Shown here piece after piece: positions 32,906-51,859 of a stretch of 64,000 bases of DNA. Position 1 is the stretch's first letter, and each line of letters begins with the position of its first letter. Location: IMG/VR virus record IMGVR_UViG_3300045988_172415, one strand, 5' to 3'. Source of the DNA: a virus. Under the pieces are notes generated by a model. It was not told the origin of the DNA. It saw nothing but the letters and a program-made list of their open reading frames with translations, and searched no databases. Both the position numbers and the translations under genes were made by a program.

Positions 32906-34636
32906 GTGAAAACCAAAAACCTGTTGAAGGCAACGGTCGCCACGCTTGTGGCCGGTGCCATGGGTTTGGCTGGAGTTGGCTCCGCCATGGCGGCTGATAC
33001 TCGTGTTGACGCATCCAAGCTTGGTGAGGCTGCTCGTCAGACGTTGACCGTCGCTGCTAATGGTGATATTAGCAATCGCACGTTGAAGGCTGTGCCGCTC
33101 GCCTACTATTCGTATGCGCAGACTGATGGTACTAATATTACCGGCTTTGACCTGATTGACGCGGGCAAGGCTTCTGCCATTGCTGACGCACTGACTAAAG
33201 CCCATATTGACACCCAGTCCAAGAAAGACCAGACTGCCGGATACGACTATAATGCGTCCAATCCGATGGTGTGGGTCGTGCAGAATCTCCTTGATTCCGA
33301 GAACAGCCCGTGGGCTGGCAAGCTTCGTGACTTCATCGACCAGTTGAAGAACGAGGCCGCCGTCACCGGCGACAAGGGCACCGCGTTCGCCAAGGGCGCC
33401 GACGCCAAGCATATGACCGCATCAGTCCGTCCGGGCGTGTATGCGGTCGTGGACACCACCACGGCCGGTCAGGCGTCCATCGTCATGTTCAACGGCACCG
33501 GCATCGACGGCAAGACCACGTTGAAGAACGGCGACAAGACCTACACGCTGGGCACCGTGGACTATAAGGTGCATGACGCCGCAGTCAGGAAGGCTATCAC
33601 CTCTGTTGAGAATGGTGATGTGGATGAGAAAATCGGTGAGGACCATGAGGATGAGGGGGCTCGCCAAGCAGGGAAGAAATATTATGCGGTAGCCAAGACC
33701 TCCATCGGCAAGAAGGTCTCTTTCACGATGGGCGGCGCGGTGCCTGTTTGGACTGGCTACGACCATTATTATTATGCGCTCAACGATACGTATTCGGATG
33801 GTCTGACTTTCAACCCGGATAGTGTGAATGTCACTGTCGGTGGTAAGGCTTTGACTGCTGGCAAGGATTACAAGGTGACGACCGAGGCGGGCAAGTTCCA
33901 TATCCTGTTCGCCCCGACCGCTGATGGTTCTTCCGACATCATCGCCGCCAAGACCACGTTCCCGGTCGATGCGGAAGTGCTTGTCACTTATGACATGACC
34001 GTGAACAAGAACGCCCACGTGGACGGTGTTGACACCAACACGAGCGAGGTCGAATACTCCCATAATCCGAACACCGTCACCGACCATGAGAAGACTCCGG
34101 GCGACACCAACTACGTGTACGTCGGCAAGTTCACTCTGACCAAGACCGATACGAACAATGCTCCGCTCGCGGGTGCCGTGTTCAACATCAAGGATGCCAA
34201 GAGCAATATCGTCAAGTTCGTCAAGGTGGGTGATAACGAGTATCGTGTTGCCGACTCGACTGAGGCCGCTACCGCAAGCGCCGACATCACCACCACCGAT
34301 AAGAACAATGGCGTCATCACCTTGAAGGGCTTGTACGGTGCCTACACGGTGACTGAAACCAAGAGTCCGTTCGGCGGCAGCATTCTGCCGGAGTTCACTC
34401 TGACCGTTGGCGTGGCCCAGTCCAAAGACCATAACACCAGCACTTCGTCCCTCACCAAGTTCAAGGATGATGCCAACCATCTGGCCTCCAAGACCAGTGA
34501 CGATGGAGTGACCGTCATCAACGCCCGCAACATCGCTGACATGCCGAAGACCGGTGCGGTCTGGCTGTCCATCTTCGGCGTGATGACCGTCCTGTTGGCT
34601 GGCGCTTCCGCCCTGCTGCTTCGTCGCAAGGCGTGA
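32906..34636 (+). CDS. sortase-dependent pilus major subunit (LPXTG-like cell-wall anchor, MPKTG variant)
   Basis: GTG start with an RBS. Signal peptide, CnaB-type pilin E-box 'YGAYTVTETKSPFGG', and a C-terminal 'MPKTG' followed by a hydrophobic helix and 'RRKA'. Confidence 0.65.
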   Translation: MKTKNLLKATVATLVAGAMGLAGVGSAMAADTRVDASKLGEAARQTLTVAANGDISNRTLKAVPLAYYSYAQTDGTNITGFDLIDAGKASAIADALTKAHIDTQSKKDQTAGYDYNASNPMVWVVQNLLDSENSPWAGKLRDFIDQLKNEAAVTGDKGTAFAKGADAKHMTASVRPGVYAVVDTTTAGQASIVMFNGTGIDGKTTLKNGDKTYTLGTVDYKVHDAAVRKAITSVENGDVDEKIGEDHEDEGARQAGKKYYAVAKTSIGKKVSFTMGGAVPVWTGYDHYYYALNDTYSDGLTFNPDSVNVTVGGKALTAGKDYKVTTEAGKFHILFAPTADGSSDIIAAKTTFPVDAEVLVTYDMTVNKNAHVDGVDTNTSEVEYSHNPNTVTDHEKTPGDTNYVYVGKFTLTKTDTNNAPLAGAVFNIKDAKSNIVKFVKVGDNEYRVADSTEAATASADITTTDKNNGVITLKGLYGAYTVTETKSPFGGSILPEFTLTVGVAQSKDHNTSTSSLTKFKDDANHLASKTSDDGVTVINARNIADMPKTGAVWLSIFGVMTVLLAGASALLLRRKA

Positions 34637-34715
34637 GATTGGAGATTGGAATACTGCCGTATGAGAAAACTTTTCTGACCGTTTGACGGTTGGAAAAGCA
34701 TGAAATGTTCCGCTT

Positions 34716-34753
34716 GGCGTGTCGGGAACCCAAATATCGACACGCCACTTTTT
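34716..34753 (+). terminator. rho-independent terminator between the pilin and sortase genes
   Basis: Stem GGCGTGTCG...CGACACGCC followed by ACTTTTT. Confidence 0.5.
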
Positions 34754-34770
34754 AGATTCTTTATAACCGC

Positions 34771-35676
34771 ATGGGAGGGGTTTTGGGAAAACATACGGCG
34801 AAACCGAAAGGCTTGGGAAATCGAGCCATAGCGGGACTTCTCTGCCTAATCCTATCCGCCCTGTCCGGAACCATCCCATTCATTCTCATGATTTCGAACA
34901 GCAGCCAATCCAACCGGTTGACCGACTCCCACGCGCAAGCCGTGGAAAACACTGACGTGAAACGAATCGCCCAAGAGTATGCGGACGCGCAAGCCTACAA
35001 TCAACGCCTATACGAGGAAGGCCAGCCCATTCTTGGTGAGGCGGAAGACCCTTGGACGGGCGTCAACAAGTCCGAAACGGACAACACGTATCGGAAGCAA
35101 CTATCCACCCCCAAGGATGGGGTCATGGCTACCATCAAATATCCACGCTTGGGCATCAACCTGCCCATCCGGCATGGCACGTCGCAAAATGTGTTGGCCG
35201 CTGGAGCTGGACACTTATACGGTTCCAGTCTCCCCGTCGGTGGCAAGAACACGCATACTGTCATATCCGCTCACACGGGTTTGGCCGACCAGCTCATGTT
35301 CGACAAGCTGCGAGGCTTCGGCAGTGAAGCCAAAAAGGGAGACGTCTTCTATTTGATAACCGCCGGACATATGCTCGCTTACAAGGTCACGGATATTAGT
35401 GTGGTAGACCCATCCGACTTTTCTAAACTGAAAATCGTCGCCGGAAAAGACCTCTCCACACTATTGACCTGCACGCCATACGGCATCAACAACAAGCGAC
35501 TCTTGGTGACCGGCACGCGCGCCAGCATGCCACACCCCGCGCCCAAACCCGAAAACGCGCCGAAAGACCACACGAACCAATGGCTCATGCTGTACGTCGG
35601 CGGCTTCTGGCTTGCGGTAATCATCATCACCATTCTCATCATCCGTAGAAAAAACCACGCAAAGAAGGAACACTAA
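34771..35676 (+). CDS. class C (pilus-specific) sortase
   Basis: N-terminal TM, catalytic 'HTGL' His, 'TLLTCTPYG' Cys motif, and the C-terminal TM anchor typical of class C sortases. Confidence 0.8.
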   Translation: MGGVLGKHTAKPKGLGNRAIAGLLCLILSALSGTIPFILMISNSSQSNRLTDSHAQAVENTDVKRIAQEYADAQAYNQRLYEEGQPILGEAEDPWTGVNKSETDNTYRKQLSTPKDGVMATIKYPRLGINLPIRHGTSQNVLAAGAGHLYGSSLPVGGKNTHTVISAHTGLADQLMFDKLRGFGSEAKKGDVFYLITAGHMLAYKVTDISVVDPSDFSKLKIVAGKDLSTLLTCTPYGINNKRLLVTGTRASMPHPAPKPENAPKDHTNQWLMLYVGGFWLAVIIITILIIRRKNHAKKEH

Positions 35677-38600
35677 TGGGTATTCTCAAAAAGCATGTGG
35701 CACATCCGGTAGCATTATTGGCCGCAATCGCCACACTGGCATCCGGCCTGACATGCATGACCAATCCGGTAGCCTCTCCAAAAGCGCATGCGGACGAGTT
35801 GAAACCTGCGTATGCTACTGCGAAAATCGTTAAGAAAGCCGACGGTACGGGGCATGGCACGAGTTCGCAAACGTTCGTGAATTCGAAGAACGGGTTCGCC
35901 ACGGGCGATGATTCCCCTACCGATGGCGTGGTCGCATCCGGTGATACGGTCGAATATTCATTGACGTTGAACTTCAACGCGGCGGGCAAGCGTACCATCA
36001 ACGTGAAGTTCGACTTGGACGACGCGCCGTATTTGCAGACTGCTGACGGTGGTGGCTTCTGCCAGCCGGGACAACTCGTCACCGCGAAGAAAAACAGTGA
36101 CGGCTCCTGCTCCTACACGGTTCCAGCCGGTGGCGTGGAAACCATGACCCAAACCTTCTATCTGAAAGCAAAAGACACGGGAGGCTTGGTCAAGCCGGGT
36201 CAGATTCCGAAAATCGTCGTCGCCCGCGAAGGTGGAACGTCAACCACGTATCGTACGGATGAGCTGACTGTAGTATCCGCTCCGGCGGCTGACTTGGTCA
36301 TTGACAATGGCGGCAATCCGGTGAAAGGCCAATACTCGTATGAGCATCGTACTTATTGGAGTCAGAACACCGACGCGACCGGCGATTTCACTATTCGTGC
36401 CGACGCGTTGACCTATCCGGGTTATTCGTCCACGAAGGGCGCGTCCACCAGCATCGATTGGACTACCAAAGTGGATATTTCCGACTTCCCGCAGAACACC
36501 GTGTGGACTGTAGGCGGTCAGCGGATTACCCGTAACAGTGATAAAGAACAGTATCTGACCGTATCCAGTGGCAAGAACGGTGCGGCGGCGACAATCAGCT
36601 ACAGGATTCCCGCCGGAACCGACGCGCTCAAAAACATGAAAGAAGGAGACGTCAAATATTACGATGTCCACCTTGTTCCCGACGAAACCGTGTTCAGCGT
36701 CAAAGACGATAACGGCGACGCACTGTTGAACATGGGCAAAGGTGGAGAACCCGGCTGGAACATTGGACGGGACAAGAGCACCTACAACAAGGATACGGGT
36801 GCCCGCGTCGGCTACCCGTACGCGAATAATGACTGGTCACGAGCCATCATCCAACGGCTCAAGCCGACTCCAGCTGGCAAGATTCCACTGTTCGGCAAAG
36901 GACTGCAACGTCCTAACACTGCGTCCAAGACCATGTTCGACAAGGAGAATCTGACGTTCGACGCCGCCGAAGGCAAAGCCGACATCTACCATTACTATTC
37001 CGACGGTTCCGGCGACACCGTGTCCCGTGGAACGCAAGTCAAAACCATTTTGGAAATGTATGCGGCGAACGTTACGGCGGACAAGCTTAAAAACACTACG
37101 CCGACCATGCAGGACGAGTGGGATAATACGCGCATGCGGTGGGATGGAAGCTTGGAAGTCACCCAGAACGGCGCTCCGGTTTCCGACTACAAAGTTCAAT
37201 GGGATGATAGCAAAGACAATTGGCATGACGGGGAACCATCCGACACAGACGCTCCGAACGTCAAGAAGATTCGGGTGACGTTCAACCCCGACACTTTGAC
37301 TTTGGGAAAGGGTGCGCCGAACGTTCAGGTCACGTTCAACACGCTCGCCATAGCCGACGTGTCCAAAGGCAATGTGGAAGCTTTGGATACGCTGACCGCA
37401 TGGCTTACCGAAGACGATAAGGCGAGCGTCACCAATTGGGTGTGGATTGCCAAGCCGGTAGACCCGACCACCAGTATCGACATCAGTCTAAAAGCCTACG
37501 ATGGTGAAGGCAATCAAGTGTATGCGAACAACAGTTCCAATCACCCGTCCGGAAGCGCAGTCGATTTGACTCCCGGCATGCGAGTGGATTATACGGTCAC
37601 GGAACAATTGCGCACCATTCTCCTGTCCAATACGAGCATGACGCCGACCATCACGGTGCCGAAACCGAAAGGCTTGTACAATCCGACCTGTGATGATTCG
37701 TTCTGGCAGATGAAAGTGGACGGGAATAATCTCGTGTTCACGCCACGTTCCGGCAAAGTCACGCCGGAAGTAGACCGTATGGGGTCGGCCACTTTGCCTG
37801 ACCTGCATTTCAGTGGCATCGTATCCAATCTCGCCACCGGGACTGTGACCGCCAGTGCGAATATGAGCGTGGACGTTGACGAGAACGGCGCATTGCAAGC
37901 CCAAACCATCAAAAGCAATACGCCCAGCGTCCCATTCCCTGTCTCCAATGCGGAAACCAACAGTGGCATCATGCGTGTGAAGACCACGAAGGCTGAAATC
38001 AGTGACCCGCTTACTTGGGAGTTCAACGTGTACGGCAAGGGCGGCGGACATACCGGCACCATGGATAGCATGCTACTGCTTCCTGCGAATGGTGATGAGA
38101 AGTACGTGCAGGACAAGCTGGTCGAATATGAGCGTGGATACAGCAACTATCATGGCTCCTACGAACTGACCCAGCCCGTCACGGTCAATATGGACAATTC
38201 GACCAGTACGACCGTCTACTATTCAACCACCACCGGAAAGAAGTCGGATAATCCGGCTGACTACGAGTGGAAGACATGGGATGAATTGTCCTCCATCGAG
38301 AAGAAGAACATCATCGCCATCCGACTGACCAGCACAGTCGTCGCGTCCGACGATAAACTGTCCTATTCGGCGGTGAACGGCGCCATCACGCTCACCCCAT
38401 CCGACAATGTGAAAGACGACAAGTACACGCTGTGGCTTGGCCGTAACTATTATTCCGACGCTTCCGACAAACCGGCGGGCAACCAGCCGTGGCCTGACGT
38501 GGCGAAGGTAGTGGCCGGTAGCATCAGCGGCACCGTCTGGTGGGATAAGGATGAGAACACGCTCATCGGTGACAGTGAAGAACGTATCGAAGGAGTGGAA

Positions 38601-41054
38601 GTCACCCTCGGCAAGCAGGATTCAAGCGGCGGCTGGCAGGCCGTCAAAACGGTGAAGACCGACAAGGACGGCTACTACGAGTTCAACCTGCTCCACTCCG
38701 GCACCTACCGTACTTCGGTGAAACGCAACACTGGCACCAGTACGGGTGATGGCGTGCAGACGCAGGTCAAAACCTACTATGGCAAGCTCGAAAACGTGAC
38801 GAACACGCGAAGCTGGTCGAACAAAATCAAGTCCAACGCGAAAGACACGTCCGACGACATCCACCTAGGCATCGGCGCAGACCAGAAGAACGTGGACTAC
38901 GGGTATGCGAAACCAGACCCGAAAGCCACCGTGGACAAAACCGTCACCGGCACCAGTTGCACCGATACGAAATGCGTCATCAACTGGGATGTCAAAGTAC
39001 AGAATTCTGGCACTAGTCGTTTTGATACTTCCAGTGTCGTTTCTGACCGTATGAGCGCCGACGTGCATGATGTTTCCGCTACCGCCGGTACGGTTTCTAT
39101 CGAGTCTGGTGGTGCGAAGCAGGTTGCGACGAGTGGCGACCATAAGTTTGTGTTGACGAACGAGGGCTTGTTGTATGCGTGGGGTAACAACCAGTATGGT
39201 CAATTAGGTTTCAAGCCTGACACGACGAATACCGCTACCCCAACGAACGTGAACAAGCCGACCATCGTCAACGGTAGTTGGCTGAAAGTCGCCGCCGGTG
39301 GCAAGCATTCCGCCGCCATCAGCACGGACGGCCACTTGTACACGACTGGTTGGAACGGTAAAGGCCAATTGGGTACGGGTGATACGGATAATCGTGACCA
39401 GTGGACTCTAGTCGCAGAAGATAAGACGTTTGTTGACGTGGCGTGCGGCAACCAGTTCACTGTGGCGATAGCAAGTGACGGCACCTTGTGGGTGGTCGGA
39501 AAAGTCAGTTCCACCTCGTATTCAACGTGGACGCAAATCCAGTCGGGTAAAACGTTCACGCAGGTCAGCGCCAGCACGTACAGGTGGGTCGCGTTGACGT
39601 CCTACGGCGGTTGTGTGGTGGACGGCGACGAGTTTTTCTCTATTGGTTTCACGCAAGTTGTCGCCTCATTCGGCAACGCCTACGGGTTGACTGACGCGGG
39701 TACAGTGATAGTGCTCGTCGACGGAGGTGATAGCGGTATCGGCCAGTCCAATGTGTCTAATCTGAGGTACATCACCCGTATCGGTGGCGGATACAACACT
39801 TTCTACGCCATCGACAAGAACCAACACTTGTGGGCGGCTGGCTGGAATGGTGACGGCCAATTAGCGAACGGTAAGACCGGTACAGGCAGGTATTGGACCA
39901 ACGGCAGTACGAGCGGCAACGCGGATATTGTTTCCACGCCAATCGATACGGGCATTACCGCATCCGACGTTGCGGGCGGCGACCGTGACGTGCTCATTGT
40001 CGGCAAGCAGGTCATGATTGCGGGCTTCGACCCGTATGGTGACGGCAAGACGGGTGGCGCACGTTCCACCGGTTTGAAGGGAATGGTCGTATCGTCCGAC
40101 CCGACCGCCGTACCGGTCGAACCGTTGAGCGAGTCCACGGAGAAGGGGTTGACGACCCGCACGTACAATCTGCCGTATGCGATTGAGTCGGGCGGCTATG
40201 TCATCTACCATTTCACTGGCACCGTTGACCGTGAAACTGCGGATACTACCAAGTGGTCTCCAACTGAGAAAGACGAGTGGGTCAAGAAGAATACGAAGAC
40301 CATTCTCAACCAAGCATGGTTCACCTCCGAACACACGCCATACTCAGGCACGCCACATGCAAGCGGCAAAACCAAGCCGGACCCTCCGAACGCATCCAAA
40401 CTGGATACGAACACGAATGACGTGACCGGCAATCCGACATGCCGCACCGACACCGACTATACGGAGGAAGGACGCCAACACTGGTTCAGCACGTCCGATG
40501 AGGACTCCTGCGACCAAGTCGGCACCATCATCACACCAACCACCACCGCGAAGAAACTCGGTTCCATCAGCGGCCTGTATTGGGAGGATACCAACAAGAA
40601 CGGCATTCAAGATGAAGGTGAGAACACGCATTTCGCCGGTCAGACGGTCATTCTGACTGACGAGAACGGCAAACAGTTGGCAACCACCAAGACCGACAAG
40701 GATGGCAAGTACATTTTCGAACGTCTGGACGCGAACGGCAACAAATACCGTATCCAATTCACCAAAGTGAACCACCGGGACTTCACCACGCCGGATGTGG
40801 GAGACAAGACTCCTGCGACGGATGGAAGCTCCACTGATTCGGATGCTTACACGGATGAAGCCAACAAGCTGACCATCACCCTCACCCAAGATGCTCCAAC
40901 CAAGGAGCATGTGGATGCGGGTGTCCTGCCTGAAACATGGTTGGCGACCATGCCGCACACGGGCATGGGATTGCTGTTGCCGCTCCTCATGCTCGTCAGC
41001 ATCAGCGGACTCGTCGCGGCAATCATCCTCCTACGAAAGAAGGAAGAACAGTGA
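35676..41054 (+). CDS. giant cell-wall-anchored adhesin (putative pilus tip/ancillary adhesin) with RCC1-repeat β-propeller and SdrD-B/CnaB-like domains
   Basis: 1,792 aa. Signal peptide. RCC1 repeats ('LYAWGNNQYGQLG', 'LYTTGWNGKGQLGTGD', 'LWAAGWNGDGQLANG'). Two SdrD-B-like modules ('SGTVWWDKDENTLIGD...DKDGYYEF', 'SGLYWEDTNKNGIQDEGE...DKDGKYIF'). C-terminal 'MPHTG' followed by TM and 'RKKEEQ'. Confidence 0.7.
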   Translation: MGILKKHVAHPVALLAAIATLASGLTCMTNPVASPKAHADELKPAYATAKIVKKADGTGHGTSSQTFVNSKNGFATGDDSPTDGVVASGDTVEYSLTLNFNAAGKRTINVKFDLDDAPYLQTADGGGFCQPGQLVTAKKNSDGSCSYTVPAGGVETMTQTFYLKAKDTGGLVKPGQIPKIVVAREGGTSTTYRTDELTVVSAPAADLVIDNGGNPVKGQYSYEHRTYWSQNTDATGDFTIRADALTYPGYSSTKGASTSIDWTTKVDISDFPQNTVWTVGGQRITRNSDKEQYLTVSSGKNGAAATISYRIPAGTDALKNMKEGDVKYYDVHLVPDETVFSVKDDNGDALLNMGKGGEPGWNIGRDKSTYNKDTGARVGYPYANNDWSRAIIQRLKPTPAGKIPLFGKGLQRPNTASKTMFDKENLTFDAAEGKADIYHYYSDGSGDTVSRGTQVKTILEMYAANVTADKLKNTTPTMQDEWDNTRMRWDGSLEVTQNGAPVSDYKVQWDDSKDNWHDGEPSDTDAPNVKKIRVTFNPDTLTLGKGAPNVQVTFNTLAIADVSKGNVEALDTLTAWLTEDDKASVTNWVWIAKPVDPTTSIDISLKAYDGEGNQVYANNSSNHPSGSAVDLTPGMRVDYTVTEQLRTILLSNTSMTPTITVPKPKGLYNPTCDDSFWQMKVDGNNLVFTPRSGKVTPEVDRMGSATLPDLHFSGIVSNLATGTVTASANMSVDVDENGALQAQTIKSNTPSVPFPVSNAETNSGIMRVKTTKAEISDPLTWEFNVYGKGGGHTGTMDSMLLLPANGDEKYVQDKLVEYERGYSNYHGSYELTQPVTVNMDNSTSTTVYYSTTTGKKSDNPADYEWKTWDELSSIEKKNIIAIRLTSTVVASDDKLSYSAVNGAITLTPSDNVKDDKYTLWLGRNYYSDASDKPAGNQPWPDVAKVVAGSISGTVWWDKDENTLIGDSEERIEGVEVTLGKQDSSGGWQAVKTVKTDKDGYYEFNLLHSGTYRTSVKRNTGTSTGDGVQTQVKTYYGKLENVTNTRSWSNKIKSNAKDTSDDIHLGIGADQKNVDYGYAKPDPKATVDKTVTGTSCTDTKCVINWDVKVQNSGTSRFDTSSVVSDRMSADVHDVSATAGTVSIESGGAKQVATSGDHKFVLTNEGLLYAWGNNQYGQLGFKPDTTNTATPTNVNKPTIVNGSWLKVAAGGKHSAAISTDGHLYTTGWNGKGQLGTGDTDNRDQWTLVAEDKTFVDVACGNQFTVAIASDGTLWVVGKVSSTSYSTWTQIQSGKTFTQVSASTYRWVALTSYGGCVVDGDEFFSIGFTQVVASFGNAYGLTDAGTVIVLVDGGDSGIGQSNVSNLRYITRIGGGYNTFYAIDKNQHLWAAGWNGDGQLANGKTGTGRYWTNGSTSGNADIVSTPIDTGITASDVAGGDRDVLIVGKQVMIAGFDPYGDGKTGGARSTGLKGMVVSSDPTAVPVEPLSESTEKGLTTRTYNLPYAIESGGYVIYHFTGTVDRETADTTKWSPTEKDEWVKKNTKTILNQAWFTSEHTPYSGTPHASGKTKPDPPNASKLDTNTNDVTGNPTCRTDTDYTEEGRQHWFSTSDEDSCDQVGTIITPTTTAKKLGSISGLYWEDTNKNGIQDEGENTHFAGQTVILTDENGKQLATTKTDKDGKYIFERLDANGNKYRIQFTKVNHRDFTTPDVGDKTPATDGSSTDSDAYTDEANKLTITLTQDAPTKEHVDAGVLPETWLATMPHTGMGLLLPLLMLVSISGLVAAIILLRKKEEQ

Positions 41055-41065
41055 AAGGAACAAGA

Positions 41066-41998
41066 ATGGGCGAACACGCCACACAATCACACGGGAGCCG
41101 TCACATGGTTCGGCGGCTCCTCGCCACCCTCGCCATCATGAGCGCGGTCTGCGGCGGCTTCCTCACCGGTAGTGCAATAGCCGCCGAACCAGCCAAATGC
41201 AATACTGGCGTGGACAAGGTTTGCTACGCGGGCTATAACGCGGCGGGATTGAAACAGATTGCCGACGATTTAAGCGAGAAAGGCAAAGGAAGCACATACT
41301 ATGCCGCAATGGAAAAGAACCTGACCGACGGGGTCAAAGGCACGCTCACCCTATCAGACGGCTCGAACCTCCCATTCCGACTCATCGGCATCCTCCACGA
41401 CGACAAAGCCGACGGAAGTGGACGAAAAGCAGGATTGACGTTCATGGCTTGGAACGCGTTACCGAAAGCGTATGCCATGAACAATAGTCACACCAATAAT
41501 GGCGGCTGGCGTGACAGTCTTCTCCGCAATCAGATGAACAATGGTGAAATCTGGAACCAATTCCCAACCGACTTCCAAAACAACGTCACAACCGTGCTGA
41601 AACAAACCAACAACATGGCCTACGGAAGCACAGTCGGTTCAAGCGCGTCAGCCACGGCAGACAAAGTATGGCTCGTCTCCTACCGTGAACTCGTACCAAC
41701 CTTATACGATGGTTGGAAGACCTCTGGTGGTTTCCAAGCGTTGAATCAGGAGGGAAGCCAATACGAGTATTTCCACGGTAAGGTGACAAATAACTGGTCG
41801 GGTAATAGCATTCTCTCCGGCATCTACAAGACCGTTTCCGGTTCCGCTCCTCTTGGTGCTTACGGCAGCTTTTGGTGGGAGCGTTCGCCCGACCCGGACC
41901 TCTACGGCCATTTCCTCCTAGTGAGCTCGTACGGCGACCCCAGCTACAGCGACCGTGCCGACTATCGCTACTCCGTTGTCCCCGCTTTCTCCTTCTAA
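41066..41998 (+). CDS. DGR target protein: secreted protein with a C-terminal variable region
   Basis: Start at 41066 with RBS GAAAGGA; the track ORF begins at 40937 inside the adhesin gene. Sec signal peptide (MVRRLLATLAIMSAVCGGFLTGSAIAAEP). The last ~50 codons are a VR homologous to the downstream TR. Confidence 0.7.
   Translation: MGEHATQSHGSRHMVRRLLATLAIMSAVCGGFLTGSAIAAEPAKCNTGVDKVCYAGYNAAGLKQIADDLSEKGKGSTYYAAMEKNLTDGVKGTLTLSDGSNLPFRLIGILHDDKADGSGRKAGLTFMAWNALPKAYAMNNSHTNNGGWRDSLLRNQMNNGEIWNQFPTDFQNNVTTVLKQTNNMAYGSTVGSSASATADKVWLVSYRELVPTLYDGWKTSGGFQALNQEGSQYEYFHGKVTNNWSGNSILSGIYKTVSGSAPLGAYGSFWWERSPDPDLYGHFLLVSSYGDPSYSDRADYRYSVVPAFSF
41831..41984 (+). repeat. DGR variable repeat (VR) at the 3' end of the target gene
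   Basis: A 154-bp match to TR 42629–42782. All 24 mismatches fall at positions where TR has adenine. The 3' ~19 bp are identical to TR (IMH-like GC-rich end 'CGCTACTCCGTTGTCCCCG'). Confidence 0.85.
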
Positions 41999-42011
41999 TC
42001 CCCAATCCTTG

Positions 42012-42036
42012 GGTGGTGGGGTTCATCCCCACCACC
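42012..42036 (+). other. GC-rich hairpin just downstream of the VR/target stop
   Basis: Perfect 10-bp inverted repeat GGTGGTGGGG-TTCAT-CCCCACCACC, 14 nt after the stop. Confidence 0.6.
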
Positions 42037-42070
42037 CCTCCAAACTCAAATCTCACACAAAAGGAGTCCT

Positions 42071-42586
42071 ATGACGGTTCCCGCAAGCAAACGTACAAAA
42101 GCCAAAAGCGAATATGCGAATCAGGCCAGAATCGTGCTCTTGGCTACCAGAAATCTGTTCCGCAAATGGCCTAAAAGCCGTAACTGCATTGAAACCGTGC
42201 ATGTCATGCATATCGCCTACGAAATGTACTCCTCCGCCTACAGTGCCGACATCATTTATGCAAGCACTGTAGAAGAGCATGAGATGAAACTGCAACTGTT
42301 GTGCAAGGCCCAAGGCATGCTGAACTCACTCTCCGGTCTTGTGGACGATTGGATGGAGTTTCCTCCACGGGAAAAAGACTTGGAAGCCTACAGGAAATAT
42401 CCGGAAGGCGACCCCAGATACAATCCCGTCGTCAAGGAGAAGAAATTCGTGAACTATGCGGGAACCCTCTACAAGGCGATGGGCGTGTTCACCGGAGCCG
42501 TCAAGTATGAGCGAGACCAGTTGAAGAAAGCTAAAAACGCCGAGTCGAAAACGAACACTATAATGGATACTCGGGCGCAAGCCTAA
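42071..42586 (+). CDS. avd: accessory variability determinant (Avd)-like protein
   Basis: 171-aa basic helical protein with RBS AAGGAG, sitting between the VR gene and TR, which is the canonical DGR Avd position. It is larger than typical ~120–130-aa Avd proteins. Confidence 0.45.
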   Translation: MTVPASKRTKAKSEYANQARIVLLATRNLFRKWPKSRNCIETVHVMHIAYEMYSSAYSADIIYASTVEEHEMKLQLLCKAQGMLNSLSGLVDDWMEFPPREKDLEAYRKYPEGDPRYNPVVKEKKFVNYAGTLYKAMGVFTGAVKYERDQLKKAKNAESKTNTIMDTRAQA

Positions 42587-42628
42587 AATATAATTGAACA
42601 AAATCGGCCATATCCAAACTATGGTGAC

Positions 42629-42782
42629 ACCGTTTCCGGTTCCACTCCTCTTGGTGCTAACAACAACAATTGGTGGGAGCGTTCGCCCAACCCGAACAAC
42701 AACAACAATTTCCTCCAAGTGAACTCGAACGGCGACCCCAGCTACAACAACAATGCCAACAATCGCTACTCCGTTGTCCCCG
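42629..42782 (+). repeat. DGR template repeat (TR)
   Basis: A non-coding copy of the VR, rich in AAC/AAT triplets. Every difference from VR is at a TR adenine. A spacer of ~190 bp separates it from the RT start. Confidence 0.85.
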
Positions 42783-42976
42783 ATTCCTCTTACCAAAAAC
42801 TAACATCAGATAGGCCAGTAGCCCAATGGGTGAAAGCCTCCCGAAGGGGAAGGGGATATGGTCGAATGCGCGGCCCCTCGAAAAATGGGTTGCGTGTGAA
42901 ATAGGTTGAGGGAGATATTAAGACTGTCGGGAACGACGGATACTCGCCCCTTAAGCTGGGCGTCCAACATCATTGC

Positions 42977-44206
42977 ATGTCTTGGGTTGTTGCCGACGAC
43001 CTGCCCTCAACCATTCTTTTCTCTTTCCCTAGTGAAGGAAGCATTAAAATCGTGAATGCGAGTCAAAGACGTAGAAGACGCCAACGCAGACTGCAACAAC
43101 GCTCGGATGATAAGTACAGGAAGCTCCACCGTTACATCGACTTCCAACAAACATTCGGATTCGACGCGCTCTACCAAGCCGCAAGAAAATGCAAACGCGG
43201 CGTCACATGGAAAAACACAGTGTTGAACTTCGACAATAGGCGTGCCGTCAACTGTTGGAAACTCGCCCAAGAATTAGAGGACGGCACATACAAGAAGAGA
43301 GCGCCAATCCGATTCGACATTCCCGAACGAGGCAAACTCCGCCACATCAGCGCGGTATCCTTCCGAGACCGGGTGGTGCAACGCGCCTTATGCGACAACA
43401 GTCTCGTCCCCATCGTGGAAAGCCAACTGATATACGATAATGCGGCAAGCCTACCGAAACGTGGAACATCGTTCGCCCGAAAACGGTTCGAACTACACTA
43501 TAAGCGGGCTTTGGGCAAATGGGAGCATCCGTATGCTGTCATCTTCGACTGTTCCAACTATTTCGGAAGTATCAGCTCCCAACGAGCGTTCGATATGATT
43601 TCCACCCTGTACCGGAGCATCGCCCGCACCGGACGGGAGAAGCAGGATGTGGAACGGATTCTAACCGTATTGAGAATCTTCGTATTGGACGAACCTCACT
43701 TGGGTTTAGGCAATCAGACAAGCCAAACCATGGCTATCTGGTATTTGAACAAGGTTGACCACTGGTGCATGTCACAAGGATTCTACGGACGGTATATGGA
43801 TGATGCCTACTGTTTCTGCAAGAATCGTGAACAGGCCGAACGTGTGCTGGCCGGTTACGAGCGGCATGTCAATCAATTGGGATTGCGGTTGAACAAGCGC
43901 AAGACCCGCATAGTGGACTGTCGCACCGGTCAACTCACATTCCTGAAACGCGTATACAGCGTACAGGATGACGGCAGTATTCTTATCCGCATGCACCATA
44001 AGGCGTTGCGTGCAAGCCGACGGCATGCGCGTAACCTTATCCGCTCATATGATGGCGTGCATGTGGGATTGCGGACAGTTCAGGATTCTTGGACGAGCCA
44101 TGAGAGCACACTGTCGGGTCTAACTCACCGTCGTGGACTGTGCGCTCGGGAGAAAGCGTGGTATCGGAGGCATTGTGAAATGCGGAAGCTGGCTTTTCAC
44201 CCGTGA
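42977..44206 (+). CDS. DGR reverse transcriptase
   Basis: RT motifs 'ISAVSFRDRVVQRAL', 'LGLGNQTSQTMAIWYL' (the DGR-specific GNxTSQ in place of the group-II QGxxSP) and 'YGRYMDDAYCF' (YMDD). The start codon is uncertain. Confidence 0.85.
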   Translation: MSWVVADDLPSTILFSFPSEGSIKIVNASQRRRRRQRRLQQRSDDKYRKLHRYIDFQQTFGFDALYQAARKCKRGVTWKNTVLNFDNRRAVNCWKLAQELEDGTYKKRAPIRFDIPERGKLRHISAVSFRDRVVQRALCDNSLVPIVESQLIYDNAASLPKRGTSFARKRFELHYKRALGKWEHPYAVIFDCSNYFGSISSQRAFDMISTLYRSIARTGREKQDVERILTVLRIFVLDEPHLGLGNQTSQTMAIWYLNKVDHWCMSQGFYGRYMDDAYCFCKNREQAERVLAGYERHVNQLGLRLNKRKTRIVDCRTGQLTFLKRVYSVQDDGSILIRMHHKALRASRRHARNLIRSYDGVHVGLRTVQDSWTSHESTLSGLTHRRGLCAREKAWYRRHCEMRKLAFHP

Positions 44207-44475
44207 TTTCCGGACTTTCCAGATTGGTGGAGGGGTGTAATCTGCTGGAAGCGGTGGCGCAGAATCTTCCGCTTCCTCAATCGTTTGGATGAGATTTCGT
44301 GAGGCTTGGATTGTATCGTATTTTACTCGGCATGCTTGTCGGCTAGTTTTTCTTCCCAGCTTGGTGTTACACTGGGTTTACTTGCATTTCCTTCCTCGGG
44401 ACTTCGCCCATGTGGGGCTTTAGAGGTTATCAGCGCATTGGTCAGAGTATGCCGTTTGAGTGAAAGGAAACTGTC

Positions 44476-45087
44476 ATGGCAGGTTTTGATGATATTACGG
44501 TCACTCGCAGTGATGGCCGTTTGAAGGTTAAGGCTCCATATAATCCGTTGTTCGCCCGTCGCTCCCGCGCGTTGGGTGGAACGTTTGATGACAAGTTGAA
44601 GACTTGGACGTTCGATATGCGTGTGGAAAGGCTGGTGTTCGAAGCTTTAGACAAATACTTCTGGTGGCATAAGGGCGTGGACGCTGAAAAGCGTGTCACA
44701 GTCACCATCGACCCCTACGACTACTTGTACGCGTACTCCAAGCAGGATAGCGACATTATCTGGTTCGCTGGTCGAATCCTAGTCGAAAAATATCAGCCCG
44801 ACCGTCCACCGCGCATGATGCCGAATGTGGCTCTCGTGGATGGCATGTGGCCTAAAACCGGCTTGTACACGGGGTTGAATCTCAGTCCCGACAAACTCCG
44901 ATTATTGGTATGGGATGTTCCAACCAGTTTTCTGGAACGACTGTCGTCCGGCAAGTATGAGTTGTCTGAGCCGGATGGTGACACGTTGACTGCGGTTGAC
45001 GTTCGTATTCAGGCTATGGAGGAACGGTTAGGCCGGTTGAGGGAACTCCGAACCCGACTCGCCTCTAATAGTGAGGATGGTGAATGA
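44476..45087 (+). CDS. hypothetical protein (203 aa)
   Basis: ORF with RBS GAAAGGAAA; its end overlaps the next gene (ATGA). Confidence 0.4.
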   Translation: MAGFDDITVTRSDGRLKVKAPYNPLFARRSRALGGTFDDKLKTWTFDMRVERLVFEALDKYFWWHKGVDAEKRVTVTIDPYDYLYAYSKQDSDIIWFAGRILVEKYQPDRPPRMMPNVALVDGMWPKTGLYTGLNLSPDKLRLLVWDVPTSFLERLSSGKYELSEPDGDTLTAVDVRIQAMEERLGRLRELRTRLASNSEDGE

Positions 45088-46091
45088 TGCTCTCCGTGCC
45101 GATTAATGGTCAAGTCCAGTCGCGTCTCATTCCGCCCACGTTCGTGGAAGACAACATCAGCGACATGTTCAAGGCTGTGGACGCCGGACACAATATCGTC
45201 GTGACGGCAGTGGACGAGTACGGTAATCGAACCAGTATTACCACGCCGGATAATGTGAATCATGACATGCTGGGGCGTCCTCTCGAATTCGCGTCCCATC
45301 CCGTACTGATGCGGAATGTGCGCCGTTGGATGGTTTGGCTGTTGCAAGCGCAATACTGCAAGGATTACAAGTGGGATACGAACAGGCTTGGAGGTTGGAT
45401 GGAAGTGTTGGGTTTACCAGCCGACCTTGATATTCCCGTAACGGAGGAACATTTACGCGTGTTGAAGCCTGTGTTTAACAAGGATGATGCCGACCCGTAT
45501 CGGCTTGTCGCACGATACGACAAGCAACATTATGCTTCATGCACCCTCAGCACTCTCATACGGTTAGCCGAACAAACCACGCCAAACTATGCCCTGAACA
45601 ATCCCACCCGCTGGTGCCAAACCGACCGATACCGCAAACTCAGCATCCAACCCAATCCGAAAGAAAACTGGGACGGAATGGACAGGGTACGCGACTGTTG
45701 GAGCGGATGCGAATGGGCATACCCCGCATTGGAACGCTACTATAATCCGATTCGACTATTACGCGACGAATACCGGCGGGGAGGACTACCTGAAACCTTC
45801 CACTATCCAATACACACGACAAAAGGCGAATACCGGTTGGCGAAAGGACAAATCAGCCCCCACGCAACAATCCTCCTCAACGGCAAGCCCGTAGGACTCA
45901 TGTTCAGCGACGATTGCGAGGAACCATTCACCGACCGGATACCACCCGAATGGTGCGCCACACCCTTACCGGAAAACTATAAGACCACGCCACTCAACAG
46001 AAACATTCCCGTAAACGGCGAATTCAAACCATCATTCCAGCAAGCCATGCTGGGATTCGTGGAATGGTATGAGAAAACGCACAAGGGATAG
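45084..46091 (+). CDS. hypothetical protein (335 aa, Trp/Cys-rich)
   Basis: ORF translationally coupled to the upstream gene. Confidence 0.4.
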   Translation: MMLSVPINGQVQSRLIPPTFVEDNISDMFKAVDAGHNIVVTAVDEYGNRTSITTPDNVNHDMLGRPLEFASHPVLMRNVRRWMVWLLQAQYCKDYKWDTNRLGGWMEVLGLPADLDIPVTEEHLRVLKPVFNKDDADPYRLVARYDKQHYASCTLSTLIRLAEQTTPNYALNNPTRWCQTDRYRKLSIQPNPKENWDGMDRVRDCWSGCEWAYPALERYYNPIRLLRDEYRRGGLPETFHYPIHTTKGEYRLAKGQISPHATILLNGKPVGLMFSDDCEEPFTDRIPPEWCATPLPENYKTTPLNRNIPVNGEFKPSFQQAMLGFVEWYEKTHKG

Positions 46092-46199
46092 CAAAAGAGG
46101 AAAGCCCCCTTAGTTGAGGGGCTTTCTGGTAAATGTCAAATGGTGGCAAGCTTGAATTCTTCCAGCTTGTCCATGCTAAACCGCCCAGAACAACAAAAC

Positions 46200-47357
46200 C
46201 TAGTTCTCCGAGCGTTCGCTGATATTCTCCCGCATCTGCAAATAAGCCCCATGCTCACGCAAGTAATCCCGCAAATACGGCATTTTGAAAGCGACTTCAC
46301 CGTAACCGACCGGCTCAATCAAATCGTTCTCAATCAGCTTGGTTCTATACACGTTGGCGAACTGTGGCGAACGGTTCAACCGACGGGCGATTTCACCTGT
46401 ATTCGACACCGTATCATCCACCGACATGGCAAGCAGATAGTTCACCGCATGGGATGGCAAGCCATGCAATGCTGGGGCGTGAACCATATCCCCTAGTTTG
46501 GCTTGGGCTTTTTCGATACCCTTGACCGCGTCCTCCTCGGTCACTTGATTCACATGGCCGTTGGTTTCGGAAACCCTCCAAGCCCAATAACCCACCAGCT
46601 GAATCATGAACGGATAACCATGAGTGGCATTGGTCAACCGTATCAAGGTTTCCATTCCGGCTTTCTTTTCCCCGCTGAACGATTCCTCGAATGCTTTCAG
46701 AACCTTCTCCGTGGGCACGGAACCTAAATGGTATCGTTCTGCCCGTTGGAGGAATGTGATGGCGTTGTCTGACAGCACGTCGTTTACGGCTGAGGGTAGT
46801 CCTGCGAAAATAAAAGCTATATTCCGTCCCTCTCGTATGAGATGTTGCACGGCGGTAGACATTGCTCTGATTTCATCCATGGAACCGGATTGCACTTCGT
46901 CCAAGGTGATGAGGATTCCTTGCCTGTTTTCGTTCATTTTGTCTAGACGCTTGCCGACTGCTTGGCGCAATGTCAAGGAACGTTCCTCTTTGCGTTCGAG
47001 TTCGATTCTTCCCAGACTCAGTTCGAGGTTTCCGGTGTTTCCCGTCAGTCCGACACTGGGCATGTCGTATGCAGATATGCGGGTGGTATCTTTGCCGGTA
47101 AGTGAGTCCACGAGTCTTTGTGTAAAACCGCTGTCAGCGCTTTCGTTGTAGACTTGCCATCCTTGTTTTTGAGCGTGTGTTCCCAATGTGTCCAGCATTA
47201 CGGTTTTGCCGACTCCTCTGGCTCCGGTGAGAAACATCAGTCGTCCGGGGCTTCCTACTCCGTCTTTTAGGGCGTAGTCGAAGTCTTCGATGATTTCTTC
47301 TCGTCCAACAAGAATTGGGGGTATGCGTCCGGCGGTTGGTTTGAATGGGTTGGTCAT
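46200..47357 (-). CDS. AAA-type ATP-binding protein (archaeal-ATPase/DUF234-like)
   Basis: N-terminal 'LVGREEIIEDFDYAL' followed by Walker A 'LTGARGVGKTVML' and Walker B 'LITLDEVQ'. A winged-helix-like C-terminus. RBS AAGGAG. Confidence 0.55.
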   Translation of the reverse strand: MTNPFKPTAGRIPPILVGREEIIEDFDYALKDGVGSPGRLMFLTGARGVGKTVMLDTLGTHAQKQGWQVYNESADSGFTQRLVDSLTGKDTTRISAYDMPSVGLTGNTGNLELSLGRIELERKEERSLTLRQAVGKRLDKMNENRQGILITLDEVQSGSMDEIRAMSTAVQHLIREGRNIAFIFAGLPSAVNDVLSDNAITFLQRAERYHLGSVPTEKVLKAFEESFSGEKKAGMETLIRLTNATHGYPFMIQLVGYWAWRVSETNGHVNQVTEEDAVKGIEKAQAKLGDMVHAPALHGLPSHAVNYLLAMSVDDTVSNTGEIARRLNRSPQFANVYRTKLIENDLIEPVGYGEVAFKMPYLRDYLREHGAYLQMRENISERSEN

Positions 47358-51814: not shown

Positions 51815-51837
51815 TATACTGGAACTGTTCACACAAA
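51815..51837 (+). promoter_or_regulatory. conserved promoter/operator module copy
   Basis: 'TATACTGGAACTGTTCACACAAA'. Confidence 0.55.
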
Positions 51838-51859
51838 CAGGAAACCAAAAGGAGCAGAA

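What the first reader, a model, noticed from the sequence alone, without database searches (positions are those of the whole stretch)
41066..44206. Complete diversity-generating retroelement (DGR) with adenine-specific TR→VR divergence
The last ~150 bp of the secreted-protein gene, the VR (41831–41984), are repeated non-codingly as the TR (42629–42782) between an Avd-like gene and a reverse transcriptase. I aligned the two repeats codon by codon and found 24 mismatches. Every one sits at a position where TR has A, and VR shows G, T or C there (for example TR 'gctAACAACAACAATtgg' versus VR 'gctTACGGCAGCTTTtgg'). No non-A position differs until the repeat ends. The TR is built of AAC/AAT triplets, which is the classic mutagenic Asn-codon design. 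The 3' ~19 bp (CGCTACTCCGTTGTCCCCG) are identical in both repeats, consistent with an IMH. The RT carries 'LGNQTSQ', the DGR-type GNxTSQ that replaces QGxxSP, together with YMDD. This is the textbook signature of mutagenic retrohoming acting on a surface or secreted ligand-binding protein.
Basis: partly seen in the sequence, partly recalled or inferred. Interest (0 to 1): 0.92.

Follow-up and report, generated by a model that had tools for sequence, protein, structure and literature searches.

The report
Active DGR on a bifidobacterial megaplasmid
This is a complete, naturally active diversity-generating retroelement that rewrites the binding face of a secreted lectin-fold protein encoded in a pilus/adhesin operon on a large Bifidobacterium-type plasmid; the mechanism is a textbook one and only its setting is unusual.

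Summary
VR (41831-41984) and TR (42629-42782) align without gaps over 154 bp. They differ at 24 positions, all at TR adenines and all at codon positions 1 or 2.

Twelve independent metagenomic copies of the same cassette each carry a different VR. Of 228 VR/TR mismatches, 224 lie at TR adenines. TR single-base variants at non-adenine sites are copied into the cognate VR, so information flows from TR to VR and the element is active in nature.

- **RT:** it carries LGNQTSQ and YMDD, and its best solved relative is the Bordetella DGR RT.
- **Target:** a DUF6273 C-type-lectin-fold protein, a published DGR target type.
- **Hairpin:** a GC-rich hairpin follows VR and keeps its pairing through compensatory changes.

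The cassette closes a pilin–sortase–LPxTG adhesin operon on a roughly 215-230 kb plasmid-like element. That element's RepA is 35-38% identical to those of Bifidobacterium megaplasmids.

Verdict: a new member of a known kind, of moderate interest.

The parts
41066..41998 (+). DGR target gene. It encodes a 310-aa protein with an N-terminal signal-peptide-like segment (MVRRLLATLAIMSAVCGGFLTGSAIA|AEP) and a DUF6273 domain with a C-type-lectin fold.
41831..41984 (+). Variable region (VR), covering codons 256-307 of the target.
   Evidence: 24 of 24 mismatches to TR fall at TR adenines. The VR differs in every one of 12 related loci.
41964..41998 (+). IMH-like 3' boundary. It consists of a 21-nt block identical to TR (41964-41984) followed by a partly diverged segment (VR CTTTCTCCTTC against TR ATTCCTCTTAC).
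   Evidence: The VR base C at 41985, against A in TR, is invariant (Ala307 in 51 of 51 homologues). Diversification therefore stops at or before 41984. The same GCT (VR) against GAT (TR) difference recurs in the distant cassette L032 and in the remnant L031. The function is inferred by analogy with BPP-1.
42011..42037 (+). GC-rich hairpin GGGTGGTGGGG-TTCAT-CCCCACCACCC, 13 nt after the target stop codon, with no U-tract.
   Evidence: DNA fold z = -3.6, and 0 of 200 shuffles fold as well. Stem variants in other lineages (GGGGGTGGGG/CCCCACCCCC and TGGTGGGTGGGG/CCCCACCCACCA) keep perfect pairing and the same loop. Different hairpins sit at the same place in L034 and L032.
42071..42586 (+). Accessory gene. 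It encodes a 171-aa basic protein (pI 9.4) that is a divergent Avd-fold four-helix bundle, with an insertion at about residues 97-122 and a long C-terminal helix.
42629..42782 (+). Template repeat (TR). It is non-coding and has 17 AAC/AAT triplets in the VR frame.
   Evidence: The TR is conserved across loci (0-17 differences) while the VRs differ by 18-41 nt.
42783..43051 (+). TR-RT spacer, presumed to be the 3' part of the DGR RNA. It contains a purine-rich motif GGGGAAGGGGA at 42846-42856.
   Evidence: A similar motif (GGAGAAAGGGGG) lies 58-76 nt after the TR end in the distant cassettes L034 and L032, and GGGGAAGGGGA is also present in L035. There is no Rfam match. The single-sequence fold is not significant (z = -0.46). 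The role is inferred.
43052..44206 (+). DGR reverse transcriptase of 384 aa, counted from the probable GTG start. The longest ORF, which gene callers use, starts at ATG 42977 and gives 409 aa.
   Evidence: RVT_1, E 2.7e-13. The best PDB hit is 8ub7_A, the RT chain of the entry titled 'Diversity-generating retroelement ribonucleoprotein reverse transcriptase', E 3e-13, with LGNQTSQ aligned to IGSLTSQ and YMDD to YMDD. phrog_1423 reverse transcriptase, E 8.6e-57. Scores are far below the cut-offs for group II intron, retron and Drt models. Start: L034 begins ATG-MNASQRARRR, against the window's GTG-NASQRRRRR.
32906..41054 (+). Context: the upstream genes of the same operon-like cluster. They are a SpaA-type pilin (32906-34636), a sortase (34771-35676) and a 1792-aa LPxTG-type RCC1/SdrD_B surface protein (35676-41054), which ends 11 nt before the target gene.
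   Evidence: Pfam annotations of the identical genes in L001 and L008. The same gene order, including the DUF6273 gene, is found in the B. moukalabense chromosome (L031) and on a B. pseudocatenulatum contig (L036).

Best explanation
This is a functional diversity-generating retroelement.

**Proposed mechanism (inferred from the BPP-1 paradigm).** The accessory gene, TR, spacer and RT are transcribed. The RT, together with the Avd-fold accessory protein, copies the TR RNA into cDNA and misincorporates opposite template adenines. The cDNA then replaces the VR at the 3' end of the target gene, which is mutagenic retrohoming. Direction is presumably set by the IMH-like 3' boundary and perhaps by the hairpin downstream of VR.

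**Outcome (shown).** About 24-26 codons with A at position 1 or 2, mostly AAC/AAT, are re-randomised on the C-terminal strands of a C-type-lectin-fold domain, while the scaffold codons stay fixed.

**What the target is (context shown, role inferred).** The diversified protein is signal-peptide-bearing and carries no anchor motif. It is encoded as the last gene of a pilin-sortase-giant LPxTG adhesin cluster on a roughly 215-230 kb Bifidobacterium-type plasmid. It probably serves as a variable ligand-binding partner of that surface apparatus.

**Shown here:**
- the anatomy of the cassette;
- adenine-specific variation among natural copies;
- TR-to-VR transfer of TR variants;
- the protein folds.

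**Inferred:** the cDNA intermediate, priming, the roles of the IMH-like segment and the hairpin, secretion of the target, and its ligand.
For: 1. VR/TR repeat: 154 bp with 24 of 24 mismatches at TR-A, all at codon positions 1 or 2.
2. Twelve independent loci carry an identical or 95-100% identical RT. They show 228 mismatches, 224 of them at TR-A. Of the A sites, 44.6% are changed, against 0.3% of non-A sites. All VRs differ pairwise by 18-41 nt.
3. L003 differs from the window at 4 positions in the 4.8 kb upstream of VR but at 25 positions within the 154-bp VR.
4. TR variants at non-A sites are mirrored in the cognate VR, for example L003 G>A at index 98, L020 at 128/131 and L013 at 134.
5. 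Among 51 target homologues, entropy is 2.24 bits at VR A-codons, 0.34 at VR non-A codons and 0.37 outside VR.
6. RT: the best PDB hit is the RT chain of the DGR ribonucleoprotein entry 8ub7, with aligned I/LGxxTSQ and YMDD motifs. phrog_1423 gives E 8.6e-57. The best plasmid tblastn hits are RTs next to annotated avd genes.
8. The target has a C-type-lectin fold that includes similarity to the DGR protein TvpA. DUF6273 is a published DGR target with the VR at its C-terminus (PMC10743442, PMC11792537).
9. The hairpin after VR is maintained by compensatory changes.
Against: - No reads were available, so diversification within one population, and in this particular copy, is not shown directly. 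The window's exact target protein recurs on 4 contigs.
- The accessory protein fails every sequence-level test for Avd.
- Four of 228 mismatches are at non-A sites. These may be assembly noise, ordinary mutations or rare non-A errors.
- The hairpin lacks a U-tract but could still be an Actinobacteria-style terminator rather than a homing signal.
- No RNA structure in the spacer is supported statistically.
Confidence: 0.95

Rival explanations
1. The cassette is a fossil in this particular copy. The DGR was active in the past, but the window's copy is now inert and its VR is frozen.
For: Decay does happen in this family. The B. moukalabense chromosome keeps only the hairpin, 9 codons of the accessory gene and the TR 3' end. 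A B. pseudocatenulatum contig has a deletion that removes the accessory 3' part, the TR and the RT. The window's exact target protein is found on 4 contigs.
Against: In the window all parts are intact: full ORFs for the RT and the accessory protein, an A-rich TR and an intact hairpin. Copies whose RT protein is 100% identical (L002, L003, L011-L014; TR identical or differing at 1-3 bases) carry completely different VRs. Diversification therefore occurred after these near-identical elements diverged.
Confidence: 0.04
2. VR diversity arises by homologous recombination or gene conversion among pre-existing alleles, or by diversifying selection on point mutations, and the neighbouring RT is unrelated (a group II intron, retron or defence RT).
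For: The locus is mosaic. In some lineages the target and accessory genes are 78-82% identical to the window while the spacer and RT are 98-99.6% identical, so recombination does act here. The RT gives weak hits to the group II (90 bits) and DRT models.
Against: Recombination or selection cannot confine 224 of 228 differences to positions where a separate non-coding repeat has adenine, nor copy TR single-base variants into VR. The RT scores are far below the family cut-offs (90 against 300 bits for group II; 43 against 450 for Drt4; 27 against 235 for the retron model). The RT carries the DGR-type LGNQTSQ motif aligned to the RT of the DGR ribonucleoprotein entry 8ub7. There are no intron or msr/msd RNA matches.
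Confidence: 0.01
3. The pattern is an assembly artefact, that is, a chimeric collapse of two repeats.
For: Several contigs break exactly at the TR start or just after the VR hairpin (L004, L005 and L006), which shows that assemblers struggle here.
Against: The same architecture was recovered in at least 12 independent assemblies from different projects and assemblers, on contigs of up to 223 kb. The reading frames are intact and the mismatch pattern is strictly codon-aware.
Confidence: 0.005

Closest known systems
Bordetella phage BPP-1 DGR (Mtd / Avd / TR / bRT), the prototype
   Same: - The gene order is target-VR, accessory gene, TR, RT.
- The VR lies at the 3' end of a gene for a C-type-lectin-fold protein.
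- Differences are adenine-specific and the TR is rich in AAC.
- A GC-rich identical block ends both repeats, followed by a diverged segment, and a hairpin lies downstream of VR.
- The RT has the I/LGxxTSQ and YMDD motifs and is the best PDB match.
- The accessory protein has the Avd four-helix fold.
   Different: - RT similarity to the solved DGR RT is low (phmmer E 3e-13), and the RT has an Arg-rich N-terminal extension and a longer C-terminus.
- The accessory protein is 171 aa, against about 128 aa for Avd (my recollection; the solved Avd chains 4dwl_A and 8ub7_B are 109 and 122 residues). It has an insertion and a long C-terminal helix, and no detectable sequence similarity to Avd.
- The target is not a phage tail-fibre protein but a small signal-peptide protein in a pilus/adhesin operon.
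- The carrier is a plasmid-like element of a Gram-positive bacterium.
DGRs of gut phages and prophages that target DUF6273 proteins (the Mtd-like target2 proteins in PMC10743442, Faecalibacterium prophages in PMC11792537, Toutatisvirus in 10.1101/2024.10.15.618418)
   Same: The target domain family is the same (DUF6273, C-type-lectin fold), with the VR at the C-terminal end of the domain. Some relatives keep the target but have lost the DGR, as seen here in L031 and L036.
   Different: Those are phage structural or receptor-binding proteins in Bacillota phages. Here no phage genes surround the cassette. The neighbours are a pilin, a sortase, an LPxTG adhesin, DnaB, ParA and RepA.
Bacteroides cellular and ICE-borne DGRs that diversify type V pilus adhesins (10.1101/2024.11.15.621889; Science 2025)
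   Same: A DGR on a mobile, non-phage element of a gut commensal is linked to a pilus/adhesin locus, and the VR differs between hosts.
   Different: The phylum is different (Actinomycetota) and so is the pilus system (sortase-dependent Gram-positive pilus rather than type V). The target is a separate small lectin-fold protein rather than a pilus subunit. That paper notes an Actinomycetota DGR group enriched in infants but gives no description of it.
Legionella pneumophila and Treponema denticola chromosomal DGRs (LdtA, TvpA)
   Different: LdtA and TvpA are lipoproteins of diderm bacteria (from my own knowledge). Here there is no canonical lipobox, the host is Gram-positive, and the target is linked to a sortase operon.
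Bifidobacterium megaplasmid pMP7017 family
   Same: Both are large plasmids with RepA_C-type RepA, ParA and DnaB. The best RepA matches are B. longum and B. breve megaplasmids.
   Different: RepA identity is only 35-38%. There is no megablast match to any PLSDB plasmid. No reverse transcriptase is mentioned in the pMP7017 transcriptome paper, and the library search listed no use of the term 'diversity-generating retroelement' in either pMP7017 paper.

Membership tests
Diversity-generating retroelement (DGR) | A TR/VR pair of imperfect repeats whose differences fall at TR adenines | tested here: met
   24 of 24 in the window; 224 of 228 across 12 loci.
Diversity-generating retroelement (DGR) | An RT of the DGR type, with [ILV]GxxxSQ in place of QGxxSP, YxDD, and closest relatives among DGR RTs | tested here: met
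   LGNQTSQ aligns with IGSLTSQ of 8ub7_A, the RT chain of the DGR ribonucleoprotein entry (Bordetella bRT, by my identification), and YMDD aligns with YMDD. That chain is the best PDB hit at E 3e-13, and no group II RT chain scores below 0.01. phrog_1423 gives E 8.6e-57. Scores are below the cut-offs for the group II, retron and Drt models. No formal RT phylogeny was built.
Diversity-generating retroelement (DGR) | The VR lies inside an ORF and codes the solvent-exposed face of a ligand-binding fold (C-type lectin or Ig-like) | tested here: met
Diversity-generating retroelement (DGR) | An accessory protein (Avd or HRDC type) encoded in the cassette | tested here: met
Diversity-generating retroelement (DGR) | IMH/IMH*-type 3' boundary and a downstream hairpin that set directionality | tested here: inconclusive
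   A 21-nt identical block is followed by a diverged segment. VR base 41985 is fixed as C where TR has A. The hairpin is conserved with compensatory changes. Their function cannot be tested in silico, and the hairpin could also be a terminator.
Diversity-generating retroelement (DGR) | Unidirectional TR-to-VR transfer through an adenine-mutagenised cDNA | tested here: inconclusive
   Transfer of TR non-A variants into the cognate VR is seen, which supports the direction of flow. The cDNA intermediate itself cannot be tested with these tools.
Avd / 23S rRNA-intervening-sequence four-helix-bundle family (Pfam PF05635) | A sequence match to the family model | tested here: not met
   No Pfam hit at E up to 1 for any of 23 family members. 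There is no NCBIfam hit, and no PDB hit by phmmer or by profile. The protein works like Avd by fold and context but is not a sequence-level member.
DUF6273 (Pfam PF19789), C-type-lectin-like | A Pfam match above the gathering score, and the matching fold | tested here: met
pMP7017-type Bifidobacterium megaplasmid | Nucleotide-level backbone similarity, or a close replication protein | tested here: not met
   There is no megablast hit in PLSDB. RepA is only 35-38% identical. The element is a distant relative at most.
Group II intron, retron or defence (DRT/UG) reverse transcriptases | A score above the family cut-off, plus the associated RNA or effector domains | tested here: not met
   Scores against cut-offs: group II 90 against 300 bits, retron 27 against 235, Drt4 43 against 450. 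There are no Rfam intron or retron RNA matches. PADLOC gives only generic RT and weak UG hits.

The most novel reading that the evidence does not exclude
The DGR-diversified lectin-fold protein is the ligand-recognition partner of the plasmid-encoded sortase pilus and giant RCC1/SdrD_B adhesin. If so, a conjugative-type megaplasmid carries its own hypervariable adhesin specificity. This could tune binding to host glycans or mucus, or even the choice of recipient cell during plasmid spread. That would make it a retroelement-based counterpart of the R64 shufflon, which varies the PilV tip adhesin, and the first DGR tied to a Gram-positive sortase pilus. The accessory protein would then define a new sequence family of Avd-fold DGR cofactors that travels with the target module rather than with the RT.
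Probability: 0.15. Interest if true: 0.7.

Novelty: new member of a known kind. Interest (0 to 1): 0.45.

Why it matters
DGRs are well understood in phages and in Bacteroides, but hardly at all in Actinomycetota. This locus gives a clean and demonstrably active example in the Bifidobacterium sphere.

- It sits on a widespread but uncatalogued megaplasmid-like element of about 215-230 kb.
- It is wired to a sortase-pilus/adhesin operon rather than to a phage tail.
- Natural 'knock-outs' exist: copies that have lost the RT, and copies that lack the whole module. These offer ready-made comparisons.
- The accessory protein shows that Avd-fold cofactors can escape all sequence models, so sequence-based DGR finders may score such cassettes as lacking an accessory gene.

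For bifidobacterial biology, the locus points to a programmable surface-binding specificity that could affect colonisation or plasmid transfer.

Tried and rejected
- **Plasmid and phage nucleotide searches.** Megablast of the cassette and of a backbone segment against PLSDB, and of the cassette against INPHARED phages, found nothing.
- **Species genomes.** The genome-contig scan with the RT found no relative. The host assignment therefore rests on named target homologues (B. pseudocatenulatum and B. moukalabense) and on RepA similarity.
- **Avd by sequence.** Pfam on the query and on 23 family members, NCBIfam, phmmer against PDB and a profile against PDB were all negative. Only fold comparison worked.
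- **Spacer RNA.** Rfam at E up to 1 over 40500-45000 gave no hit. The spacer fold has z = -0.46, which is not significant. An alignment of four distant spacers was too divergent for covariation. I therefore make no structural claim for the DGR RNA beyond a shared purine-rich motif.
- **Gene look-up.** The exact-protein look-up of the ORF at 51692-52801 found nothing on record.
- **Terminator.** The simple scan does not call the VR hairpin a terminator, because it has no T-run.
- **Frozen VR as a natural control.** I considered using the identical VR of RT-less copies (P0047 on 4 contigs) as a control. I rejected it as decisive because the window's own target protein also recurs on 4 contigs.
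- **Phage origin.** I considered and rejected this. No phage structural genes are nearby; the backbone has RepA_C, ParA and DnaB.
- **Remote targets.** No other VR-like copy exists in the window.


Full report
**1. Observation**

I read 40800-44500 and listed the ORFs. An ungapped comparison at an offset of 798 nt shows that 41831-41984, the last 52 codons but four of the ORF 41066-41998, is repeated at 42629-42782. The 154 bp differ at 24 positions. At all 24 the downstream copy has A and the upstream copy has G (13), T (8) or C (3), and all 24 fall on codon positions 1 or 2.

The downstream copy has about 43 A, so the chance that all mismatches fall on A is around 1e-16 to 1e-17. In the VR frame the TR encodes 17 Asn codons. 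The last 21 nt are identical. No other VR-like copy exists in the window on either strand.

**2. Is it active? Related copies**

An exact-protein look-up of the RT returned contigs from independent metagenomes, and a metagenome scan returned 20 more loci. L001 is identical to the window.

In L003 the 4.8 kb upstream of VR differs from the window at 4 positions, but the 154-bp VR differs at 25.

Twelve loci carry both repeats. Across them there are 228 VR/TR mismatches, of which 224 are at TR adenines (A>G 114, A>T 94, A>C 16). Of the A sites, 44.6% are changed, against 0.3% of non-A sites. Every VR differs from every other by 18-41 nt, whereas the TRs differ by 0-17 nt.

TR variants at non-A positions are found in the cognate VR, for example the single G>A in L003 and the variants in L020 and L013. 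This is the signature of TR-to-VR information flow.

At the protein level the target has 257 homologue clusters. In 51 close homologues the mean column entropy is 2.24 bits at VR codons whose TR codon has A at position 1 or 2. It is 0.34 bits at the other VR codons and 0.37 bits outside VR.

Several short contigs begin exactly at the TR start or just after the VR hairpin (L004-L006). This is what repeat or heterogeneity-induced assembly breaks look like, but I treat it only as suggestive.

**3. The parts**

*RT.*
- Pfam RVT_1.
- The best solved relative is 8ub7_A, the RT chain of the entry titled 'Diversity-generating retroelement ribonucleoprotein'. Its IGSLTSQ aligns with LGNQTSQ, and YMDD aligns with YMDD.
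- No group II intron RT chain reached E 0.01.
- The phage RT family phrog_1423 matches at E 8.6e-57.
- The NCBIfam group II, retron and Drt models score far below their cut-offs. PADLOC gives only generic or weak UG hits.
- The best plasmid tblastn hits are below 30% identity. They include cyanobacterial RTs, the top one lying next to an annotated avd gene.
- The distant homologue L034 begins ATG-MNASQRARRR. This matches the window's GTG at 43052 (NASQRRRRR), which is preceded by GAAGGAAG. The real start is therefore probably 43052 (384 aa) rather than ATG 42977.

*Accessory protein.* The 171-aa ORF has no Pfam, NCBIfam or PDB sequence match. It has only 6 close homologues and 30 representatives among 1.84 billion proteins. 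None of 23 family members hits any Avd model, and a family profile finds nothing in the PDB.

Distant family members also lie in DGR cassettes, between a VR-bearing gene and an AAC-rich TR. An RT gene follows in L035, and the start of one in L032 and L034. The protein is therefore an Avd-fold cofactor by structure and context, but not a sequence-level member of the Avd family.

DUF6273 has already been described as a C-type-lectin-like DGR target with its VR at the C-terminus in gut phages (PMC10743442, PMC11792537, 10.1101/2024.10.15.618418).

The N-terminus (MVRRLLATLAIMSAVCGGFLTGSAIA|AEP) looks like a signal peptide, and there is no LPxTG motif. Secretion is an inference.

*Boundary and hairpin.* After the identical block, VR reads CTTTCTCCTTC and TR reads ATTCCTCTTAC. 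The C at 41985 (Ala307) is invariant in 51 homologues, so diversification ends at or before 41984. The same GCT against GAT contrast recurs in L032 and L031.

Thirteen nt after the stop codon lies GGGTGGTGGGG-TTCAT-CCCCACCACCC (z = -3.6). Other lineages carry GGGGGTGGGG/CCCCACCCCC or TGGTGGGTGGGG/CCCCACCCACCA with the same loop. L034 and L032 have unrelated perfect hairpins at the same place. By analogy with BPP-1, where an IMH and a downstream hairpin/cruciform direct homing (established knowledge, recalled), these are the likely cis signals. A terminator role is not excluded.

*Spacer.* There is no Rfam hit and no significant fold. A purine-rich motif (GGGGAAGGGGA, 42846-42856) recurs 58-76 nt after the TR in L034 and L032 and is present in L035. 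In BPP-1, cDNA synthesis is primed from an adenosine 56 nt into the spacer (recalled, not tested here). The resemblance is a lead only.

**4. Context**

The cassette follows a SpaA pilin, a sortase and a 1792-aa RCC1/SdrD_B LPxTG-type protein. Backbone proteins of the window occur on contigs of 213-229 kb that carry ParA, RepA_C and DnaB.

RepA's best matches are B. longum and B. breve megaplasmids at 35-38% identity. There is no nucleotide match in PLSDB and none to the cassette in INPHARED phages.

Named target homologues come from B. pseudocatenulatum (86%) and B. moukalabense (61%). No phage structural genes are nearby.

The module is accessory cargo:
- L007 has the same backbone but lacks the pilus-adhesin-DGR block.
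- The B. pseudocatenulatum contig L036 keeps the operon and the target, but a deletion removes the accessory 3' part, the TR, the RT and two downstream genes.
- The B. moukalabense chromosome keeps the operon, the hairpin, 9 codons of the accessory gene and a TR 3' remnant.

Lineages L016, L018, L019 and L023 have target and accessory genes that are 78-82% identical to the window, but spacer and RT that are 98-99.6% identical. This implies recombination near the TR.

**5. Mechanism**

The best explanation is canonical mutagenic retrohoming (confidence 0.95). It diversifies about 24-26 codons on the C-terminal strands of a lectin-fold protein.

The anatomy, the adenine specificity, the TR-to-VR transfer and the folds are shown here. 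The cDNA intermediate, priming, the roles of the cis elements, secretion of the target and its ligand are inferred.

The rivals are a frozen relic in this copy, recombination or selection with an unrelated RT, and an assembly artefact. All three are disfavoured by the data above.

**6. Novelty**

The mechanism and the target domain are known. Three things are new:
- the carrier, a Bifidobacterium-type megaplasmid-like element absent from PLSDB;
- the linkage to a Gram-positive sortase pilus/adhesin operon, a parallel to the Bacteroides DGRs that diversify type V pilus adhesins (10.1101/2024.11.15.621889; that paper mentions an Actinomycetota DGR group without detail);
- an Avd-fold cofactor that is invisible to sequence models.

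I found no description of this element in the searchable literature, but the library is incomplete.

Verdict: a new member of a known kind, with interest 0.45.

Noticed in passing
window 1-64000; L007-L010: The window belongs to a plasmid-like element of about 213-229 kb. It carries RepA_C at 7701-8570 and DnaB at 29937-31277; the related loci L009 and L010 also show a ParA gene next to RepA_C. Its backbone proteins are listed in 633-760 blocks of the metagenome collection. RepA is only 35-38% identical to those of Bifidobacterium megaplasmids, and there is no nucleotide match in PLSDB.
   Followed up: partly
L007 15208-19232, against window ~32900-44500: A sister element with the same backbone lacks the whole pilin-sortase-adhesin-DGR block. 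In its place it carries an IS1595 transposase, RelB and an N6/N4 methyltransferase. The DGR module is therefore swappable cargo.
   Followed up: partly
L031 8780-9260 (B. moukalabense GCA_005405785.1, 745-kb contig): This is a chromosomal copy of the same pilus operon with a decayed DGR. The DUF6273 gene and the hairpin are kept. Only the first 9 codons of the accessory gene (MTVPASKRT) and a TR 3'-end remnant (TTCGTGCCCGATTCCTC) survive, and there is no RT.
   Followed up: yes
L036 and L037 10965-11123 (B. pseudocatenulatum GCA_020526265.1, 184.9-kb contig, and a Japanese metagenome): A deletion equivalent to window ~42229-46200 removes the accessory 3' part, the TR, the RT and the 203-aa and 335-aa genes. 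The target protein (P0047) is identical in an isolate and in a metagenome from another project.
   Followed up: yes
window 41066-44206, against L016, L018, L019 and L023: The locus is mosaic. The target (77-78%) and accessory (81-82%) genes are much more diverged than the spacer (99.3-99.6%) and the RT (97.6-99.1%). The breakpoint appears to lie in the 5' part of the TR, so the Avd-fold gene travels with the target rather than with the RT.
   Followed up: partly
window 41483-41500, 41618-41635, 41723-41728 and 41774-41809 (target residues 140-145, 185-190, 220-221 and 237-248): Four clusters of high-entropy columns (1.5-2.6 bits) lie outside the VR among 72-95% identical homologues. They may be loops next to the VR-coded surface that co-vary with it, or simply lineage divergence.
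   Followed up: no
window 42977-43052: Gene callers start the RT at ATG 42977 (409 aa). A distant homologue and the position of a ribosome-binding site point instead to GTG 43052 (384 aa, MNASQRRRRR...), which lengthens the non-coding TR-RT spacer to 269 nt.
   Followed up: partly
window 42846-42856; L034 1747-1758; L032 5007-5018; L035 ~1005-1015: A purine-rich motif (GGGGAAGGGGA or GGAGAAAGGGGG) is conserved in the TR-RT spacer of otherwise very divergent cassettes. In three of the four it lies about 58-76 nt after the TR end.
   Followed up: partly
VR positions across 12 loci: The substitution spectrum at TR adenines is skewed: A>G 114, A>T 94 and A>C only 16. This could reflect RT misincorporation bias or selection against His/Thr/Pro-type codons.
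   Followed up: no
window 44476-47357: Three genes lie downstream of the RT: a 203-aa gene (weak phrog_18108 hit), a 335-aa gene (no hit) and, on the opposite strand, an AAA_16 ATPase of 385 aa (phrog_6841, E 2e-12). All are of unknown function. The first two are lost together with the RT in L036.
   Followed up: partly
L009 18140-19997; L036 14342-15790: IS605-family OrfB/TnpB (Cas12f-like) genes are inserted at different places in sister elements; the L009 copy is paired with a Y1 transposase gene.
   Followed up: no
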